DNA from: Candidatus Saccharimonadota bacterium
GTDB lineage: Bacteria > Bacteroidota > Bacteroidia > Cytophagales > Amoebophilaceae
DNA length: 32,000 nt
Direction of reading: 5' to 3'
NCBI RefSeq assembly: GCF_936981045.1
Contig: NZ_OW441264.1
Span: 690,001-722,000 of the forward strand
The translations under genes were made by a program, and so were the position numbers. Below the pieces are notes generated by a model. That model did not search any database, was not told the origin of the DNA, and saw only the letters and a program-made list of their open reading frames with translations. Below are positions 21,500-27,502 of the stretch, piece by piece. Each line of letters opens with the position of its first letter. Positions within the stretch are counted from its first letter, which is position 1.

Positions 21500-22753
21500 T
21501 TAAAAACCGTTTGACTTTACTAATTTTTTTCCAGCTTCATATCCTTTAGGTGATACTTTTTTAGCAAAATTTTTCAACCTTCTCCAAAAACGCATCTTTT
21601 GCTCCATTTTCTGCATAAGATTGGCATTTGCTTTTAGTTTACGCAAACTATTCGCTCCACCGGCAGCTGCAGCAGCTACAGCACTACCAGCTACACCGGC
21701 AGCTCCAATGCTACCCATTCCAAAGAGACTATTTTTTTCGGCTCTACCACTACCCAGCCCAACACTAGCACTGCTCTTTGGGGACCCAGCTGCACCACCA
21801 CCCGGTCTAGGACTAACACTACTTTTTCTGGATCCACTTGGACCACTACCCGGCCCGCGACCACCACTACTGCTACTACTACCTAACCTATGACCACCTC
21901 CTCCAACTCCACCTCCACTACCACCAGGCCCATTGCCGGCAACACCTCCTTGCAAGCCACTGTCAGAAGGGCTTGCGCCAACATTGGTACCATAAGCCCC
22001 ATCCCCAGAACGGTTCGCAGCAATACTAGAAGTTCGACCAGAAGGGCTTGCACCAACACCGGAACTATAAACCGCACCCCCAGCACCATTAGATCCCTGA
22101 TAAATCTGATCAGGTCCTCCATCATAGGCACCAGGTGGCGCACCACTGTAAGCACCACTCATGCCATTAGGTGTCGGTCCAAAAACCTCCTGAACAGGTG
22201 GACCTTGGCCAGAAGGAACCTTTTGATTCGAGGTTGCATTGGCACCAGATGCCTTTGCATATTTGCCATCTACACCAGCAGCAGACTTCCCTTTTCCTAA
22301 AGGAACGAGCTCCTCCAATACAGATATATGCGCCTCTGCTCTAACAAGCGTACCATCTACTTGAAACATAGAATAAACGATGTCTAGAGCTACCAATCTG
22401 CCTTTAAAATCAATCTGGCCCCAGATTACACGGATGTAATTGGGAGCATTGTTCTTTTTATGGATACTGTAAGCAACATTTTGAAGTTGCTTTACTTGCT
22501 CCATCACAGCAATGGTATTGCTACCAGGTATAATGCCTGTATTATCAAACAAGAGACTAAAAGAGAGCAGCTTTGGAGGAGATCCACGGTATTTCAGCAA
22601 ACTAGAACTCGGGATTCCCTCAGGAACATGGTAGGACACTGCACTTTTAATAACCAAGTTCTCAGGATTAATAGATGTAATAAACTCTCCTGTAAAAGAG
22701 GCAAACTTATTGTCACTACATGCTTTAATAACTAGTTTACTAACATTACTCAT
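21500..22753 (-). CDS. Afp7/Pvc7-like CIS tube-domain protein with a long G/S/A/P-rich low-complexity region and a basic C-terminal tail (no LysM seen)
   Basis: The N-terminal ~150 aa (INPENL..., LKYRGSPPKLLSFSLLFDNTG, VIWGQIDFKGRLVALDIVYSMFQVDGTLVRAEAHISVLE) fit the contractile-injection-system tube N-terminal domain found in Afp7/Pvc7 homologues. Residues ~152-368 are low complexity. Residues 369-417 are Lys/Arg-rich. Confidence 0.8.
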   Translation of the reverse strand: MSNVSKLVIKACSDNKFASFTGEFITSINPENLVIKSAVSYHVPEGIPSSSLLKYRGSPPKLLSFSLLFDNTGIIPGSNTIAVMEQVKQLQNVAYSIHKKNNAPNYIRVIWGQIDFKGRLVALDIVYSMFQVDGTLVRAEAHISVLEELVPLGKGKSAAGVDGKYAKASGANATSNQKVPSGQGPPVQEVFGPTPNGMSGAYSGAPPGAYDGGPDQIYQGSNGAGGAVYSSGVGASPSGRTSSIAANRSGDGAYGTNVGASPSDSGLQGGVAGNGPGGSGGGVGGGGHRLGSSSSSGGRGPGSGPSGSRKSSVSPRPGGGAAGSPKSSASVGLGSGRAEKNSLFGMGSIGAAGVAGSAVAAAAAGGANSLRKLKANANLMQKMEQKMRFWRRLKNFAKKVSPKGYEAGKKLVKSNGF

Positions 22754-22771
22754 AACTATAGATGGATCATT

Positions 22772-22939
22772 TTACCTGGTTTCCTGATCTTTTAATAAGC
22801 TCGAAATGGCTCTTGTCAATGCCAATTGCTGCTGCGTAGTAGTATTCAATAGAAGATTTTCTGGCATAGTTTTAGTATTGTCTACTTTTTCTTTAGTTAC
22901 TTCAACCCGGATTACTAGTTCCTTAATTATAACTGCCAT
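22772..22939 (-). CDS. Unannotated 55-aa protein at the Afp6/Pvc6 position (DUF5908-like, tentative)
   Basis: The run from ATG at 22939 to TAA at 22774-22772 encodes MAVIIKELVIRVEVTKEKVDNTKTMPENLLLNTTTQQQLALTRAISSLLKDQETR. It fills an otherwise unexplained 231-bp gap in a tightly packed operon. It is below the 60-aa cutoff of the ORF track. Confidence 0.55.
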   Translation of the reverse strand: MAVIIKELVIRVEVTKEKVDNTKTMPENLLLNTTTQQQLALTRAISSLLKDQETR

Positions 22940-22984
22940 AATCAACAAAATTAATTTTGTACACTACATTAGACATTACGGATA

Positions 22985-23434
22985 TTACTTTGTTCGTACC
23001 AACCTAGAATACCCAATGGTAATGGTTTCCCCTATGGCAGGATCCGCTTGACCATCTAACTGGAAAGATGTAATGGCTATCCCCTTTGGATACACATCCT
23101 CTATCTTCCATTGCGCTAGAATCTTACCTTCTTTATTGAGAACCAAAATATGGGCCTGTGTAAGTTTAAAAATACCTTTATCAATGGCTTCTTCGCACCA
23201 AACGGTCATTTTGGTTTTGCCTTCTACTAAGGGCCTAGTCAAGATTAAGTCAGTAGTCTCACATGCATTGGATCTATAATAAGGCCTATTAGCGCCCCCA
23301 GGTAGATAGGGCTCCATCTTCAAAGCATTATTTAATCCTTCAACCTTGCAGAAATATTCTGGGGAACTACCATCTGTTACGCCCAAAATTTCTATTTGAA
23401 AAGAATGTGAATGGACTAAATTAAAACCAGTCAT
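22985..23434 (-). CDS. Contractile-tail tube protein (T4 gp19 / Afp1-Afp5 family)
   Basis: 149-aa ORF with FQIEILG...YFCKVEGLN..LKMEPYLPGGANRP...DLILTRPL..., then W.I.DVYPKG and ETITIGYSRL, the characteristic gp19-type tube pattern. Confidence 0.85.
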   Translation of the reverse strand: MTGFNLVHSHSFQIEILGVTDGSSPEYFCKVEGLNNALKMEPYLPGGANRPYYRSNACETTDLILTRPLVEGKTKMTVWCEEAIDKGIFKLTQAHILVLNKEGKILAQWKIEDVYPKGIAITSFQLDGQADPAIGETITIGYSRLVRTK

Positions 23435-26033: not shown

Positions 26034-26078
26034 TTTATTTGATTTTATGAATTATATAAAGGCTAAATTAAATTTAAA

Positions 26079-26939
26079 CTAAACATATACAACTATATCA
26101 CTATATAGTTTCTTTTTATCATCCTTATCCTTTTTGAGCGAGTCATAGGTAGGATAAGGCAATTTTTCTAATAATATGGTTTCGCCTTTTGCACCACCAA
26201 GTTTACAAAGCGAGAAAGAACGATCGTATTGATCACAAAGTTCTATGGGCATGGTAGATTCTGCACAATAGGTATGAGGCAATTCAGTGGAAGCCTTCAC
26301 TTGACTAAAGTAATCGGTATCTCCTTTAGATAGAATACTTAAAGGCCCATTGAGCCGCTTTTGGGTGTCTACTAAATGGTATCTCCAAAAGGTGGAGCGA
26401 TTTTGAATCTTAATGGAATAGGTAATAGGCTCAACAAAGCGGCTATCTTTTTGTTTTGATACAGTATGGCTCCAATGGGTAAGATCTATATCAATCATTG
26501 CAAATACATTCCAACCTGGTTGCGTAGGATAATGCGCCACTTCCTGAATCTTGACTAGATCAGCGCTACCCATAAAAGGTTTGCTATGTAGCCAATTATG
26601 ATTATGCGTATGCCCATTATACAAATAATAGACTTGCCCAGTCGAATGGCCAGCCTCTAATTCCAAAAGATTCAATGCTTGGCTATTTTTTAATGTCATC
26701 ACAAAGGAAAGGGTGATGCCATCTGTCTTTTTTTTAAACAACTCTAGCGGATGATCATAATCCTGCGAAAGCCATATCAACGCTATGCCATCTGAATGAC
26801 GCAAGATCCTAACCCTGCGTTCGGCCATCCAGGAAGCGGTAGACCGAGTTGGCTCGATATCGAAATCATTGCGGACGTTATTAGATTTATAATAATGATT
26901 CGAAATAGCTATTCGAAATAATTTTGTTGCAAATGCCAT
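26079..26939 (-). CDS. CIS-operon protein of unknown function (286 aa)
   Basis: The ORF starts 5 bp after the cap gene stop and ends 45 bp before the sheath start. I recognise no family. The C-terminus is Lys/Asp-rich. Confidence 0.7.
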   Translation of the reverse strand: MAFATKLFRIAISNHYYKSNNVRNDFDIEPTRSTASWMAERRVRILRHSDGIALIWLSQDYDHPLELFKKKTDGITLSFVMTLKNSQALNLLELEAGHSTGQVYYLYNGHTHNHNWLHSKPFMGSADLVKIQEVAHYPTQPGWNVFAMIDIDLTHWSHTVSKQKDSRFVEPITYSIKIQNRSTFWRYHLVDTQKRLNGPLSILSKGDTDYFSQVKASTELPHTYCAESTMPIELCDQYDRSFSLCKLGGAKGETILLEKLPYPTYDSLKKDKDDKKKLYSDIVVYV

Positions 26940-26944
26940 ACCTA

Positions 26945-27502
26945 TTACCTTTCACGTGATGAAAATGCTGATACTTTTAAACCCACTGTAGCATCTCCTA
27001 TAAATATCAGACCTACCTTATACAGCAAAGAAGGACTATAAGGCGCCTGTAAATTTTCCCAAAGCATAGACTTCTCTAATGTAGACATTTTAACCAACTC
27101 AACAGAAAAACTTTCAATCCCTATTCCTTGTAGAATAGGGGTATTAGAGGTATCAAAGTGTGATTTATTTTGAAAAAATGCCGCCACATAAGCAAGTAAT
27201 TCTAAATTTTTTAATAGGTCAGATGCTTTATAATCAACAGAAAATAAGAAATAAAGGTTAAATGCCTCCGGTGCTTTACGTACGATAAAACCATCCCCCT
27301 GTGGGACATATTGAGTAGGATTGCTGCACAATTCCACTGAAGTAATATCCACTAATCTCATCATAATTCCCTTTGAAGATTTGCTTTCTACTTGGGAATT
27401 TCCTAAAACTGCCAAGGATATAACTGGACACTTTACATTCGTTTTAGACTGAACGTATTGATTTGCCTCAGATAATATAGTACTAGTGCAATGATGTAGC
27501 AT
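26945..27502 (-). CDS. DUF4255 / Afp16-Pvc16-like tail terminator (cap) protein
   Basis: 185-aa ORF with the pattern ...ISLAVLGN...MRLVDITSVE...FNLYFLFSV...LELLAYVAAFFQNKSHF...N.P.L...LSVELVKMS.LE.S.LW..L.APY.PSLLYKV, characteristic of the Pvc16 N-terminal (DUF4255) family. Confidence 0.8.
   Translation of the reverse strand: MLHHCTSTILSEANQYVQSKTNVKCPVISLAVLGNSQVESKSSKGIMMRLVDITSVELCSNPTQYVPQGDGFIVRKAPEAFNLYFLFSVDYKASDLLKNLELLAYVAAFFQNKSHFDTSNTPILQGIGIESFSVELVKMSTLEKSMLWENLQAPYSPSLLYKVGLIFIGDATVGLKVSAFSSRER

What the first reader, a model, noticed from the sequence alone, without database searches (positions are those of the whole stretch)
21500..27502. Tail module of a contractile injection system (Afp/PVC-like, T6SS-iv-like) with several unassignable components
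Eight co-oriented, tightly spaced minus-strand ORFs form the module.

| Coordinates | Size | Call |
|---|---|---|
| 26945-27502 | 185 aa | DUF4255/Afp16-like cap |
| 26079-26939 | 286 aa | unknown |
| 24546-26033 | 495 aa | tail sheath |
| 23987-24451 | 154 aa | Hcp-like candidate |
| 23468-23923 | 151 aa | unknown |
| 22985-23434 | 149 aa | gp19-type tube |
| 22772-22939 | 55 aa | small protein |
| 21500-22753 | 417 aa | Afp7-like tube-domain protein |

The window contains no capsid, portal, terminase, lysis or integrase genes belonging to it. That points to a phage-tail-derived secretion or injection machine rather than a prophage.

This family includes the Serratia antifeeding prophage, the Photorhabdus virulence cassettes, MACs, and the cytoplasmic T6SS subtype iv of the amoeba symbiont Amoebophilus. 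The genomic context here (IS-flooded, AT-rich, Bacteroidota-like) fits the T6SS-iv case.

Three to four of the eight proteins have no family I can name. This is where undescribed biology is most likely.
Basis: partly seen in the sequence, partly recalled or inferred. Interest (0 to 1): 0.85.

Follow-up and report, generated by a model that had tools for sequence, protein, structure and literature searches.

The report
Cardinium T6SS-iv tail gene module

Summary
The eight co-oriented minus-strand ORFs are real and intact, under purifying selection, and syntenic in every related locus retrieved. The window is a Cardinium genome, probably the endosymbiont of the spider Oedothorax gibbosus. The ORFs map one-to-one onto CAHE_0456-0463 of C. 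hertigii and Aasi_1072-1079 of Amoebophilus. That is the tail module of the AFP-like/T6SS-iv system described in 2012 and 2017, and its transcription has been shown.

Profile searches confirm:
- the cap (Pvc16_N);
- the sheath;
- the gp19-type tube protein;
- the DUF5908 plug;
- the Afp7-like CIS_tube protein.

Of the three "unknowns":
- The 286-aa protein is a Cis16B/Alg16B cap adaptor. Its profile hits the three solved adaptors at E 1e-24 to 5e-30.
- The 151-aa protein has a tube (Hcp/gp19) fold.
- The 154-aa protein probably has one too, on weak evidence.

No phage head, lysis or integrase genes are present, and the flanks are housekeeping genes plus IS and MITE debris. The baseplate and spike genes lie elsewhere in Cardinium genomes.

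Residual points of interest are small: an extra tube-fold paralogue compared with AlgoCIS and tCIS, and loss of the LysM domain from the Afp7-like protein.

Verdict: correct interpretation, already known, low novelty.

The parts
26945..27502 (-). Cap / tube terminator: a single-domain Cis16A/Alg16A-type protein of 185 aa (orthologue of CAHE_0456 and Aasi_1072)
   Evidence: Pfam Pvc16_N, E 1.3e-19, 71 bits against a cut-off of 27, covering residues 8-171. Its size matches Alg16A (197 aa) and Cis16A (192 aa), not the two-domain Afp16 (295 aa). dN/dS 0.11-0.20.
26079..26939 (-). Cap adaptor of the Cis16B/Alg16B family, 286 aa (orthologue of CAHE_0457 and Aasi_1073).
   Evidence: A profile of close homologues hits only 7b5i_AB (tCIS Cis16B) in the PDB, E 0.0021. 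The exhaustive search finds 743 representative clusters. A 63-sequence profile hits only the three solved cap adaptors: 7b5i_AB at 5.4e-30, SalCis16b 9r9n_C at 1.2e-26, and the AlgoCIS cap adaptor 7adz_1A at 1.5e-24. All3326 was identified as Cis16B by chain label and length. No Pfam model covers the family. Its position between cap and sheath matches AlgoCIS and tCIS.
24546..26033 (-). Contractile sheath, 495 aa (orthologue of CAHE_0458 and Aasi_1074)
   Evidence: Pfam Phage_sheath_1C at 2.9e-10, above the cut-off. Phage_sheath_1 at 3.2e-06, below the cut-off. PHROG tail sheath families at 1.6e-46 and 6.9e-42. It is 93-96% identical to Cardinium sheaths and 76% to Amoebophilus. It has the lowest dN/dS of the module, 0.03-0.055.
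23987..24451 (-). 154-aa protein, a probable tube-fold paralogue on weak evidence (orthologue of CAHE_0459 and Aasi_1075). It sits where Alg1/Cis1 sits, directly after the sheath.
   Evidence: No Pfam, NCBIfam, PHROG or PDB sequence match, even with profiles that include 24-36% identical orthologues. The AF2 model is of modest quality (pLDDT 62.6, pTM 0.54). Its secondary-structure order is almost identical to that of the 151-aa model. Foldseek against the PDB gives nothing significant, only scattered tail-tube and initiator chains at TM 0.30-0.38. Foldseek against BFVD puts a T4 gp19 tail tube protein on top (E 0.015, prob 0.89), and most named hits are tube-like. dN/dS 0.06-0.14. It is conserved after the sheath in every locus that extends that far.
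23468..23923 (-). 151-aa tube-fold (Hcp/gp19-like) protein, a candidate inner-tube subunit (orthologue of CAHE_0460 and Aasi_1076).
   Evidence: AF2 model with pLDDT 67.8 and pTM 0.64. In Foldseek against the PDB, all but one of the top 50 hits are tail-tube, Hcp or tube-like hub proteins. They include Alg1 7adz_1a (TM 0.51/0.54), Pvc1 6j0f_a, Afp1 6rap_A, T4 gp19 5w5f_A and ScoCIS 9gts_1a, with probabilities mostly 0.9-1.0. The best E-value is only 2.7e-3. hhalign gives a weak, topologically equivalent alignment to the gp19 family, E 0.017. No sequence-family hit.
22985..23434 (-). gp19-type tube protein of 149 aa, by position the Alg5/Afp5-type tube initiator (orthologue of CAHE_0461 and Aasi_1077)
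   Evidence: Pfam Phage_T4_gp19, 7.1e-14, 52 bits against a cut-off of 28.2. TIGR02241 at 8e-12, below its cut-off. It lies directly upstream of the plug gene, as Alg5 does in AlgoCIS. The initiator role, as opposed to bulk tube, is inferred from position only.
22772..22939 (-). Plug protein of 55 aa, DUF5908/Afp6/Alg6 family (orthologue of CAHE_0462 and Aasi_1078)
   Evidence: Pfam DUF5908, E 4e-5, 24.8 bits, just below the cut-off of 27.7. The Amoebophilus-lineage orthologue passes at 36.3 bits. The N-terminal motif MP[VI]KI[NQ]ELVIQ.K is conserved in the orthologues and a related MAVIIKELVIRVEV is present here; the ORF occupies the same position in all 23 loci examined. The AlgoCIS paper names Aasi_1078 as the Alg6 plug homologue.
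21500..22753 (-). Afp7/Alg7-like tube initiator of 417 aa. It has an N-terminal CIS_tube domain, then about 220 residues of G/S/A/P-rich low-complexity sequence, then a conserved basic C-terminal tail. No LysM domain was detected (orthologue of CAHE_0463 and Aasi_1079).
   Evidence: Pfam CIS_tube, 1.5e-31, residues 4-147. LysM is detected in the Cytophagales orthologue (23.5 bits against a cut-off of 20.9) and weakly in Amoebophilus sp. (16.5 bits). It is not detected in the Cardinium or Amoebophilaceae copies, which have a gap at that position. dN/dS of the N-terminal domain is 0.09-0.11.

Best explanation
The region encodes the tail module (distal end, sheath and tube) of the Cardinium type VI secretion system subtype iv. 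This is a phage-tail-derived contractile injection system of CIS clade Ib, orthologous to the Amoebophilus asiaticus T6SS-iv.

Inferred mechanism, by homology to the solved AlgoCIS and tCIS structures:
1. The 55-aa plug, the Afp7-like CIS_tube protein and the gp19-type protein form the tube-initiator stack on the VgrG/PAAR spike. The spike and baseplate are encoded at other loci.
2. One or both of the 151-aa and 154-aa tube-fold proteins polymerise into the inner tube.
3. The 495-aa sheath polymerises around the tube in an extended, high-energy state.
4. A hexamer of the 185-aa cap closes the tube. A hexamer of the 286-aa cap adaptor ties the cap to the last sheath layer.
5. Sheath contraction drives the tube and spike out of the bacterium into host membranes or cytosol.

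Shown here: gene presence, family or fold assignments, orthology, synteny and purifying selection. Taken from the literature: transcription, and membrane-attached fibril arrays seen in Cardinium cells. Inferred: the assembly order, which paralogue forms the bulk of the tube, and what is delivered.
For: - ORFs are intact and tightly spaced.
- Pfam, above the curated cut-offs: Pvc16_N 1.3e-19, Phage_sheath_1C 2.9e-10, Phage_T4_gp19 7.1e-14, CIS_tube 1.5e-31. DUF5908 is 4e-5, just below its cut-off. PHROG tail sheath 1.6e-46.
- The sheath is 93-96% identical to Cardinium sheaths and 76% to Amoebophilus sp..
- The eight-gene order is conserved in related loci.
- One-to-one match with CAHE_0456-0463 and Aasi_1072-1079 in Penz 2012, Table S5.
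- Cap adaptor: profile hits to Cis16B, SalCis16b and the AlgoCIS cap adaptor at 5e-30 to 1.5e-24 (identity of All3326).
- The 151-aa protein has a tube fold. The 154-aa protein is weakly tube-like.
- The gene order cap, adaptor, sheath, tube, initiator, plug, Alg7 is the same as in AlgoCIS.
- dN/dS is 0.03-0.22 for seven genes.
- In Amoebophilus sp. the module continues directly into VgrG, PAAR and gp25.
- Literature: 16 AFP-like genes at five loci, plus fibrils seen by EM in Cardinium. All genes are transcribed and the sheath is among the roughly 11 most expressed. All sequenced Cardinium carry T6SS-iv. The probable source strain, cOegib-Wal, has all 15 genes.
Against: - The window holds no baseplate, spike, tape-measure or AAA+ gene, so completeness of the machine in this particular genome rests on the literature, not on my own test.
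- The fold of the 154-aa protein is not established. There is no significant Foldseek hit and the AF2 model has low confidence.
- The window's own plug copy scores just below the DUF5908 cut-off.
- The Afp7-like protein lacks the LysM domain, which in AlgoCIS contacts the baseplate wedges. Its docking may therefore differ.
- No effector is known, and the mode of action in Cardinium (membrane-anchored rather than released) has not been shown directly.
Confidence: 0.93

Rival explanations
1. It is the tail block of a degraded myovirus prophage or an R-type tailocin, not a secretion system.
For: The sheath and tube families are shared with phage tails. The region is bracketed by MITE copies and lies in an IS-rich genome.
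Against: No head, portal, terminase, lysis or integrase gene is in the window, and both flanks are housekeeping genes. The module carries CIS-specific families that typical phage tails lack: Pvc16_N, CIS_tube, DUF5908 and the Cis16B adaptor. Its orthologues in Amoebophilus sp. run straight into VgrG, PAAR and gp25. It is conserved under purifying selection across the whole Amoebophilaceae lineage.
Confidence: 0.02
2. It is an extracellular CIS like AlgoCIS or MACs, released by cell lysis and binding targets from outside, rather than a cytoplasmic, membrane-anchored T6SS-iv.
For: Clade Ib contains both eCIS and T6SS-iv among close relatives, and the tail-module genes do not distinguish the two modes. 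The gene order is identical to AlgoCIS.
Against: The closest characterised relative (sheath 76% identical, fully syntenic) is the Amoebophilus T6SS-iv, which is anchored to the inner membrane. EM of Cardinium shows parallel arrays attached to the inner membrane. An obligate intracellular symbiont gains little from lysing itself. None of this was tested here.
Confidence: 0.04
3. It is a decaying relic. Because the ancestral cluster was split by rearrangements in an IS-flooded genome, the tail module no longer builds a working machine.
For: The cluster breaks right after the Afp7-like gene. gyrA lies downstream here and HtrA-type proteases lie downstream in another Cardinium strain, whereas VgrG follows in Amoebophilus sp.. 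The Afp7-like protein has lost LysM. MITEs and IS pseudogenes surround the module.
Against: All eight ORFs are full length. dN/dS is 0.03-0.22 for seven genes. The sheath is over 90% identical across Cardinium. In strain cEper1 all the genes are transcribed and the sheath is very highly expressed. Arrays are visible by EM.
Confidence: 0.02

Closest known systems
T6SS subtype iv of 'Candidatus Amoebophilus asiaticus' (Aasi_1072-1079; Bock et al. 2017) and its published Cardinium hertigii orthologues CAHE_0456-0463 (Penz et al. 2012)
   Same: There are eight genes in the same order. The sheath is 76% identical to an Amoebophilus sp. and 93-96% to other Cardinium strains. The match to the published gene table is one-to-one.
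   Different: In Cardinium the module is cut off from VgrG, PAAR, gp25 and the rest of the baseplate, which follow directly in Amoebophilus sp.. The Afp7-like protein has no detectable LysM. The flanking genes differ even between Cardinium strains.
AlgoCIS of Algoriphagus machipongonensis (clade Ib eCIS; PDB 7adz, 7aeb; Xu et al. 2022)
   Same: The gene order is the same: Alg16A cap, Alg16B cap adaptor, sheath, tube, Alg5 initiator, Alg6 plug, Alg7. Sizes are similar for the cap (197 vs 185 aa), adaptor (284 vs 286), initiator (147 vs 149) and plug (52 vs 55). The adaptor family profile hits 7adz_1A at 1.5e-24. The 151-aa model matches Alg1 at TM 0.51-0.54.
   Different: AlgoCIS has one small tube protein between sheath and initiator, whereas this lineage has two (154 and 151 aa), neither recognised by the gp19 profile. 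The sheath is shorter (495 vs 692 aa). Alg7 has a LysM domain, which was not detected here. AlgoCIS is released as an extracellular particle.
Thylakoid-anchored CIS of Anabaena (tCIS; PDB 7b5h, 7b5i; Weiss et al. 2022)
   Same: Both have a two-protein cap (Cis16A plus Cis16B) and the order cap, adaptor, sheath, tube. Cis16B is the best PDB match of the 286-aa family, at 5.4e-30.
   Different: Cis16B is longer (399 aa, with a large insertion). The system is anchored on thylakoids, comes from a different phylum, and has a single Cis1 tube protein.
Serratia Afp and Photorhabdus PVC (clade Ia eCIS)
   Same: They share the sheath, gp19-type tube, Afp6-like small protein, Afp7-like CIS_tube protein and the N-terminal domain of Afp16/Pvc16.
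   Different: Afp and PVC have a single two-domain cap and no separate cap adaptor. They have three sheath paralogues, carry toxin genes in the cluster, and are released particles with tail fibres.

Membership tests
Contractile injection system, clade Ib / T6SS-iv lineage | Contractile sheath protein with the phage sheath C-terminal domain | tested here: met
   Phage_sheath_1C at 2.9e-10, 40.5 bits against a cut-off of 26.9. PHROG tail sheath at 1.6e-46.
Contractile injection system, clade Ib / T6SS-iv lineage | gp19/Hcp-fold inner tube protein or proteins | tested here: met
   The 149-aa protein hits Phage_T4_gp19 at 7.1e-14. The 151-aa model matches tube proteins almost exclusively. The 154-aa protein is only weakly tube-like.
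Contractile injection system, clade Ib / T6SS-iv lineage | Afp16/Pvc16-type cap (Pvc16_N domain) | tested here: met
   Pvc16_N at 1.3e-19, 71 bits against a cut-off of 27.
Contractile injection system, clade Ib / T6SS-iv lineage | Separate cap adaptor (Cis16B/Alg16B), a feature of AlgoCIS-type and tCIS-type systems | tested here: met
   The family profile hits only Cis16B, SalCis16b and the AlgoCIS cap adaptor in the PDB, at 5.4e-30, 1.2e-26 and 1.5e-24. The close-homologue profile already hit Cis16B alone at 0.0021.
Contractile injection system, clade Ib / T6SS-iv lineage | Afp7-type tube initiator (CIS_tube domain) | tested here: met
   CIS_tube at 1.5e-31. The usual C-terminal LysM was not detected in the Cardinium copies.
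Contractile injection system, clade Ib / T6SS-iv lineage | Small Afp6/Alg6 plug protein (DUF5908) | tested here: inconclusive
   The window copy scores 24.8 bits against a cut-off of 27.7, E 4e-5. The positional orthologue in Amoebophilus sp. passes at 36.3 bits. The N-terminal motif and position are conserved in 23 loci. The AlgoCIS paper names Aasi_1078 as the Alg6 homologue.
Contractile injection system, clade Ib / T6SS-iv lineage | Baseplate and spike genes (VgrG, PAAR, gp25, Afp11/12-like), tape measure and AAA+ ATPase in the same genome | not testable with these tools
   They are absent from the 32-kb window and the rest of the genome is not available. Published for C. hertigii at four other loci. 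All 15 genes are reported for the probable source strain. They are contiguous in Amoebophilus sp..
Contractile injection system, clade Ib / T6SS-iv lineage | Orthology and synteny with the Amoebophilus T6SS-iv cluster | tested here: met
   The sheath is 76% identical. All eight genes are found in the same order in L010, an Amoebophilus sp. locus.
Contractile injection system, clade Ib / T6SS-iv lineage | Cytoplasmic, inner-membrane-anchored mode of action (the feature that makes it a T6SS rather than an eCIS) | not testable with these tools
   It needs cryo-ET. The literature reports membrane-attached arrays in Cardinium and anchored arrays in Amoebophilus.
Prophage (myovirus) tail region | Linked capsid, portal, terminase, lysis and integrase genes | tested here: not met
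   Pfam on the other large ORFs of the window gives only housekeeping proteins, transposases and a group II intron reverse transcriptase.
Canonical T6SS (subtypes i-iii) | TssB/TssC sheath, Hcp (T6SS_HCP), TssJLM membrane complex, ClpV | tested here: not met
   The sheath hits phage-type sheath families and not TssB/TssC. No T6SS-i to iii family was reported for any of the eight proteins in Pfam or NCBIfam.

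The most novel reading that the evidence does not exclude
The T6SS-iv lineage (Cardinium, Amoebophilus and related Cytophagales) keeps two extra small proteins between the sheath and the gp19-type initiator, of 154 and 151 aa. Neither is recognisable by any sequence profile outside this clade. AlgoCIS, tCIS and Afp have a single tube protein there. If both are built into the machine, the inner tube could be heteromeric or have a specialised layer. Alternatively, the 154-aa protein may not be a tube subunit at all. It could be a new component, for example a lumen-bound cargo adaptor.
Probability: 0.25. Interest if true: 0.45.

Novelty: already known. Interest (0 to 1): 0.2.

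Why it matters
T6SS-iv is the only dedicated injection machine known in Cardinium. It is the likely delivery route for the factors behind cytoplasmic incompatibility and other reproductive manipulations, so a correct parts list is useful to people in that field.

This window adds no new system. What the analysis contributes is refined annotation:
- CAHE_0457/Aasi_1073-type proteins are Cis16B/Alg16B cap adaptors.
- CAHE_0460-type proteins have a tube fold, and CAHE_0459-type proteins probably do.
- The lineage carries one more tube-fold paralogue than the solved clade Ib structures.
- The Cardinium Afp7-like protein has lost its LysM domain.

Tried and rejected
- PDB sequence searches with the single 154-aa and 151-aa proteins, and with three successively broader profiles, gave only noise. 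The cytochrome bc1 subunit 7, recoverin and designer-PPR hits have no stretch that is significant on its own.
- hhalign between the small-protein families was uninformative. With the narrow alignments, even the positive control (gp19 family against the CIS_tube N-domain) failed. With broader alignments only the 151-aa family against gp19 gave a weak hit, E 0.017.
- Pfam on divergent orthologues of the three unknowns gave nothing. PHROGs on all members of the two small families also gave nothing.
A sheath alignment worked, but it returned only the same clade.
- Exact-sequence look-ups of the sheath, the 154-aa protein and P0001 found no indexed contig. The source strain is therefore inferred only from a 100% identical protein named for the Cardinium endosymbiont of Oedothorax gibbosus.
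- Bock et al. 2017 is not held in the library, so I could not check how that paper labelled Aasi_1073, 1075 and 1076.
- The sigma-70 promoter and terminator scans gave fewer sites than shuffled sequence and were ignored.
- Published expression values do not single out one small protein as the major tube subunit: 520, 466 and 398.

Full report
**Observation.** The only difference is that the mechanical ORF list starts the smallest one at a TTG (22948). Gaps between genes are 5-94 nt. Against orthologues in four Cardinium/Amoebophilaceae loci, dN/dS is 0.03-0.22 for seven genes. For the short plug ORF it is 0.13-0.44. These are constrained genes, not chance ORFs.

**Source and context.** A reference-genome scan with the sheath returned Cardinium strains at 93-96% amino-acid identity, Amoebophilaceae MAGs at about 91%, Cytophagales MAGs at 73-78% and an Amoebophilus sp. 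at 76%. The 154-aa protein is 100% identical to a protein named for the Cardinium endosymbiont of Oedothorax gibbosus. That genome is published as 1.1 Mb with about 30% transposable elements, which fits the IS-rich window. The other large ORFs in the window fall into three groups:
- Housekeeping genes: an RseP-type M50 protease, Lon, an acyltransferase, and ORFs I read as gpsA, ybeY, gyrA, yebC and ruvB.
- Mobile-element genes: Mutator-family and DDE transposases, and a group II intron reverse transcriptase.
- Two small proteins in a low-GC island.

No capsid, portal, terminase, lysis or integrase gene is present.

Pfam places four proteins above the curated cut-offs:

| Coordinates | Pfam family | E-value |
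|---|---|---|
| 26945-27502 | Pvc16_N | 1.3e-19 |
| 24546-26033 | Phage_sheath_1C | 2.9e-10 |
| 22985-23434 | Phage_T4_gp19 | 7.1e-14 |
| 21500-22753 | CIS_tube | 1.5e-31 |

- PHROGs supports the sheath at 1.6e-46.
- The small ORF hits DUF5908 at 4e-5, just under the cut-off.
- The small ORF's positional orthologue in Amoebophilus sp. passes at 36.3 bits.
- All 23 loci examined have a small ORF at that position; its N-terminal motif MP[VI]KI[NQ]ELVIQ.K is conserved in the closer relatives and looser in the most distant loci.
- The AlgoCIS paper names Aasi_1078 as the homologue of the Alg6 plug.

**The system is already described.** Penz et al. 2012 reported 16 AFP-like genes at five loci in C. 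hertigii cEper1, together with EM images of fibril arrays. Their Table S5 lists CAHE_0456-0463 against Aasi_1072-1079 in exactly the order seen here. CAHE_0457, 0459 and 0460 are marked "n.d.". Mann et al. 2017 found all the genes transcribed, with the sheath among the roughly 11 most expressed genes. Mean values were about 253, 405, 2,400-3,900, 520, 466, 398 and 994 for CAHE_0456, 0457, 0458, 0459, 0460, 0461 and 0463. A 2025 review states that all sequenced Cardinium carry the T6SS-iv and that it probably forms the columns the genus is named for. The genome paper for the probable source strain reports homologues of all 15 genes.

**The 286-aa "unknown" is the cap adaptor.**
- The single sequence gave a weak PDB hit to 7b5i_AB, "All3326 protein" (E 0.31).
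- A profile of 20 close homologues hit that chain alone at E 0.0021, through a shared TY.I..KNR.T.WRY motif.
- The tCIS paper's supplement lists Cis16B as chain AB with 399 residues, which identifies All3326 as Cis16B. It also gives all3325 as the sheath and all3324 as the tube.
- An exhaustive HMMER search with the profile found 743 representative clusters at E <= 0.001.
- A 63-sequence profile built from those hits matches exactly three CIS proteins in the PDB. They are Cis16B (5.4e-30), SalCis16b (1.2e-26) and the AlgoCIS "cap adaptor protein" 7adz_1A (1.5e-24).
- No Pfam model covers the family, which explains why it looked unassignable.
- Alg16B is 284 aa, and this protein is 286 aa.

**The 151-aa "unknown" has a tube fold.** It has no sequence-family hit. 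An AF2 model has pLDDT 67.8 and pTM 0.64. In Foldseek against the PDB, all but one of its top 50 matches are tail-tube, Hcp or tube-like hub proteins. They include:
- Hcp from Flavobacterium and Bacteroides;
- phage P1 and T4 tail tubes;
- Pvc1, Afp1 and the ScoCIS tube;
- AlgoCIS Alg1, at TM 0.51/0.54.

Probabilities are mostly 0.9-1.0, although no E-value falls below 2.7e-3. hhalign against the gp19 family gives a weak alignment over topologically equivalent positions, E 0.017.

**The 154-aa protein is probably tube-like, but this is not established.** No sequence method links it to anything outside the clade. The evidence for a tube fold is as follows:
- The AF2 model is weak (pLDDT 62.6, pTM 0.54). 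Its order of secondary-structure elements is nearly the same as in the 151-aa model: six strands, a helix at about residues 74-87, a strand, a long strand and a final strand.
- Foldseek against the PDB gives nothing significant. Tube and initiator chains are scattered among unrelated hits at TM 0.30-0.38.
- Against BFVD the top hit is a T4 gp19 tail tube protein (E 0.015, prob 0.89). Most named hits are tube-like, including tail tube proteins, baseplate initiator-type proteins and a DNA-circulation N-terminal domain.
- It occupies the position directly after the sheath, which Alg1 and Cis1 occupy in AlgoCIS and tCIS.
- Its dN/dS (0.06-0.14) is among the lowest of the small proteins.

**Comparison with AlgoCIS.** The AlgoCIS gene order is Alg16A (197 aa), Alg16B (284), Alg2 sheath (692), Alg1 tube (142), Alg5 initiator (147), Alg6 plug (52) and Alg7. 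The window reads 185, 286, 495, 154, 151, 149, 55 and 417 aa. The layout is therefore the same, with one extra small protein between sheath and initiator. That three-gene arrangement is conserved in every related locus, down to 64% sheath identity, and the three families never cross-hit.

**Differences within the lineage.**
- In Amoebophilus sp. the Afp7-like gene is followed directly by VgrG (Phage_base_V/GPD), PAAR, gp25 and an 836-aa ORF. In Cardinium of Nabis limbatus it is followed by HtrA-type proteases.
- In this window it is followed by 1.25 kb of repeat-rich non-coding DNA and a convergent gyrA. The ancestral cluster is therefore broken at this exact point in Cardinium, as Penz et al. 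described.
- The Afp7-like protein of a Cytophagales MAG has a LysM domain (23.5 bits against a cut-off of 20.9), and the Amoebophilus sp. copy has a weak one (16.5 bits).
- The Cardinium and Amoebophilaceae copies have a gap there. They carry about 220 residues of G/S/A/P-rich low-complexity sequence, followed by a conserved basic tail.

**Mechanism.** By homology with the solved AlgoCIS and tCIS structures, I infer the following steps:
1. The plug, the Afp7-like protein and the gp19-type protein form the initiator stack on the spike.
2. One or both orphan tube-fold proteins build the inner tube.
3. The sheath assembles around the tube.
4. The cap hexamer closes the tube, and the cap-adaptor hexamer ties the cap to the last sheath layer.
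5. Contraction expels the tube and spike.

The parts and their orthology are shown here. The order of assembly, which paralogue forms the bulk tube, and the cargo are inferred.

**Rivals.**
- The prophage or tailocin reading fails, because phage genes are absent and CIS-specific families are present.
- An extracellular CIS mode cannot be excluded from sequence alone. It is disfavoured by the close relationship to the Amoebophilus system and by the published EM.
- A decaying relic is contradicted by intact ORFs, low dN/dS and published expression.

**Verdict.** The system is already known, down to the gene table, for this genus and probably for this strain. What remains open is minor: the role of the extra tube-fold paralogue or paralogues, and the effect of LysM loss.

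Noticed in passing
window 20604-20843 and 28303-28542; further copies at 4488-4727 and 7640-7879; extra termini at 21023-21038, 28586-28601 and 6717-6732: A 240-bp AT-rich MITE-like element with 16-nt terminal inverted repeats (ACCTGAGTTCGGGATT). The terminal motif occurs 11 times, against 0.13 expected by chance. Two nearly identical copies in inverted orientation bracket the CIS tail module. A lone terminus abuts the DDE_Tnp_1_3 transposase ORF at 6731-7324, which may be the autonomous parent. The pair could drive inversion or rearrangement of the module.
   Followed up: partly
window 21500-22300 (C-terminal two-thirds of the 417-aa protein); L009 6306-7529; L010 13363-14487: The Cardinium Afp7-like protein has no detectable LysM domain, while a Cytophagales orthologue has one and an Amoebophilus sp. 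orthologue has a weak one. In its place is about 220 aa of G/S/A/P-rich low-complexity sequence of variable length, then a conserved basic tail (FWRRLKNFAKKV.PKGY). The GC-rich low-complexity DNA also creates a spurious 136-aa plus-strand ORF at 21890-22300.
   Followed up: partly
window 8055-8834 (-) and 8947-9675 (-): In a low-GC island (29-30% GC), a 259-aa protein with a SUKH/SMI1-KNR4 domain lies next to a 242-aa protein with no family. SUKH domains often mark immunity proteins of polymorphic toxin systems. Both proteins start with a hydrophobic segment. They could be an effector/immunity-type pair in a genome whose T6SS-iv substrates are unknown.
   Followed up: no
window 10675-12054 (-): A group II intron-type reverse transcriptase/maturase (RVT_1 plus GIIM). 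No Rfam family, including group II intron RNA domains, reached its gathering score anywhere in the window.
   Followed up: partly
window 5812-6717 (-), 16337-17445 (+), 28634-29086 (+): Decayed genes: a truncated Mutator-family (IS256-type) transposase, a second copy split into two overlapping ORFs by a frameshift, and a truncated Phos_pyr_kin/PfkB-type kinase of 150 aa.
   Followed up: no
window 27850-28092 (-): An 80-aa ORF about 350 nt upstream of the cap gene on the same strand. By eye it looks like the N-terminal domain of the ATP synthase epsilon subunit. It was not tested with any tool.
   Followed up: no
window 17779-21500 compared with L001 14769-19276: The gene downstream of the tail module differs between Cardinium strains: convergent gyrA here, two HtrA-type proteases in the Nabis limbatus strain. 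The locus has therefore been rearranged within the genus.
   Followed up: partly
L024 (sheath at 6001-7482) and L026 (sheath at 4609-6087): These two metagenomic relatives have 4.6-6 kb of sequence upstream of the sheath. Even so, they gave no hit to the cap or cap-adaptor profiles, while the downstream small proteins were found. The distal-end genes may be elsewhere or very divergent in that sub-lineage.
   Followed up: no
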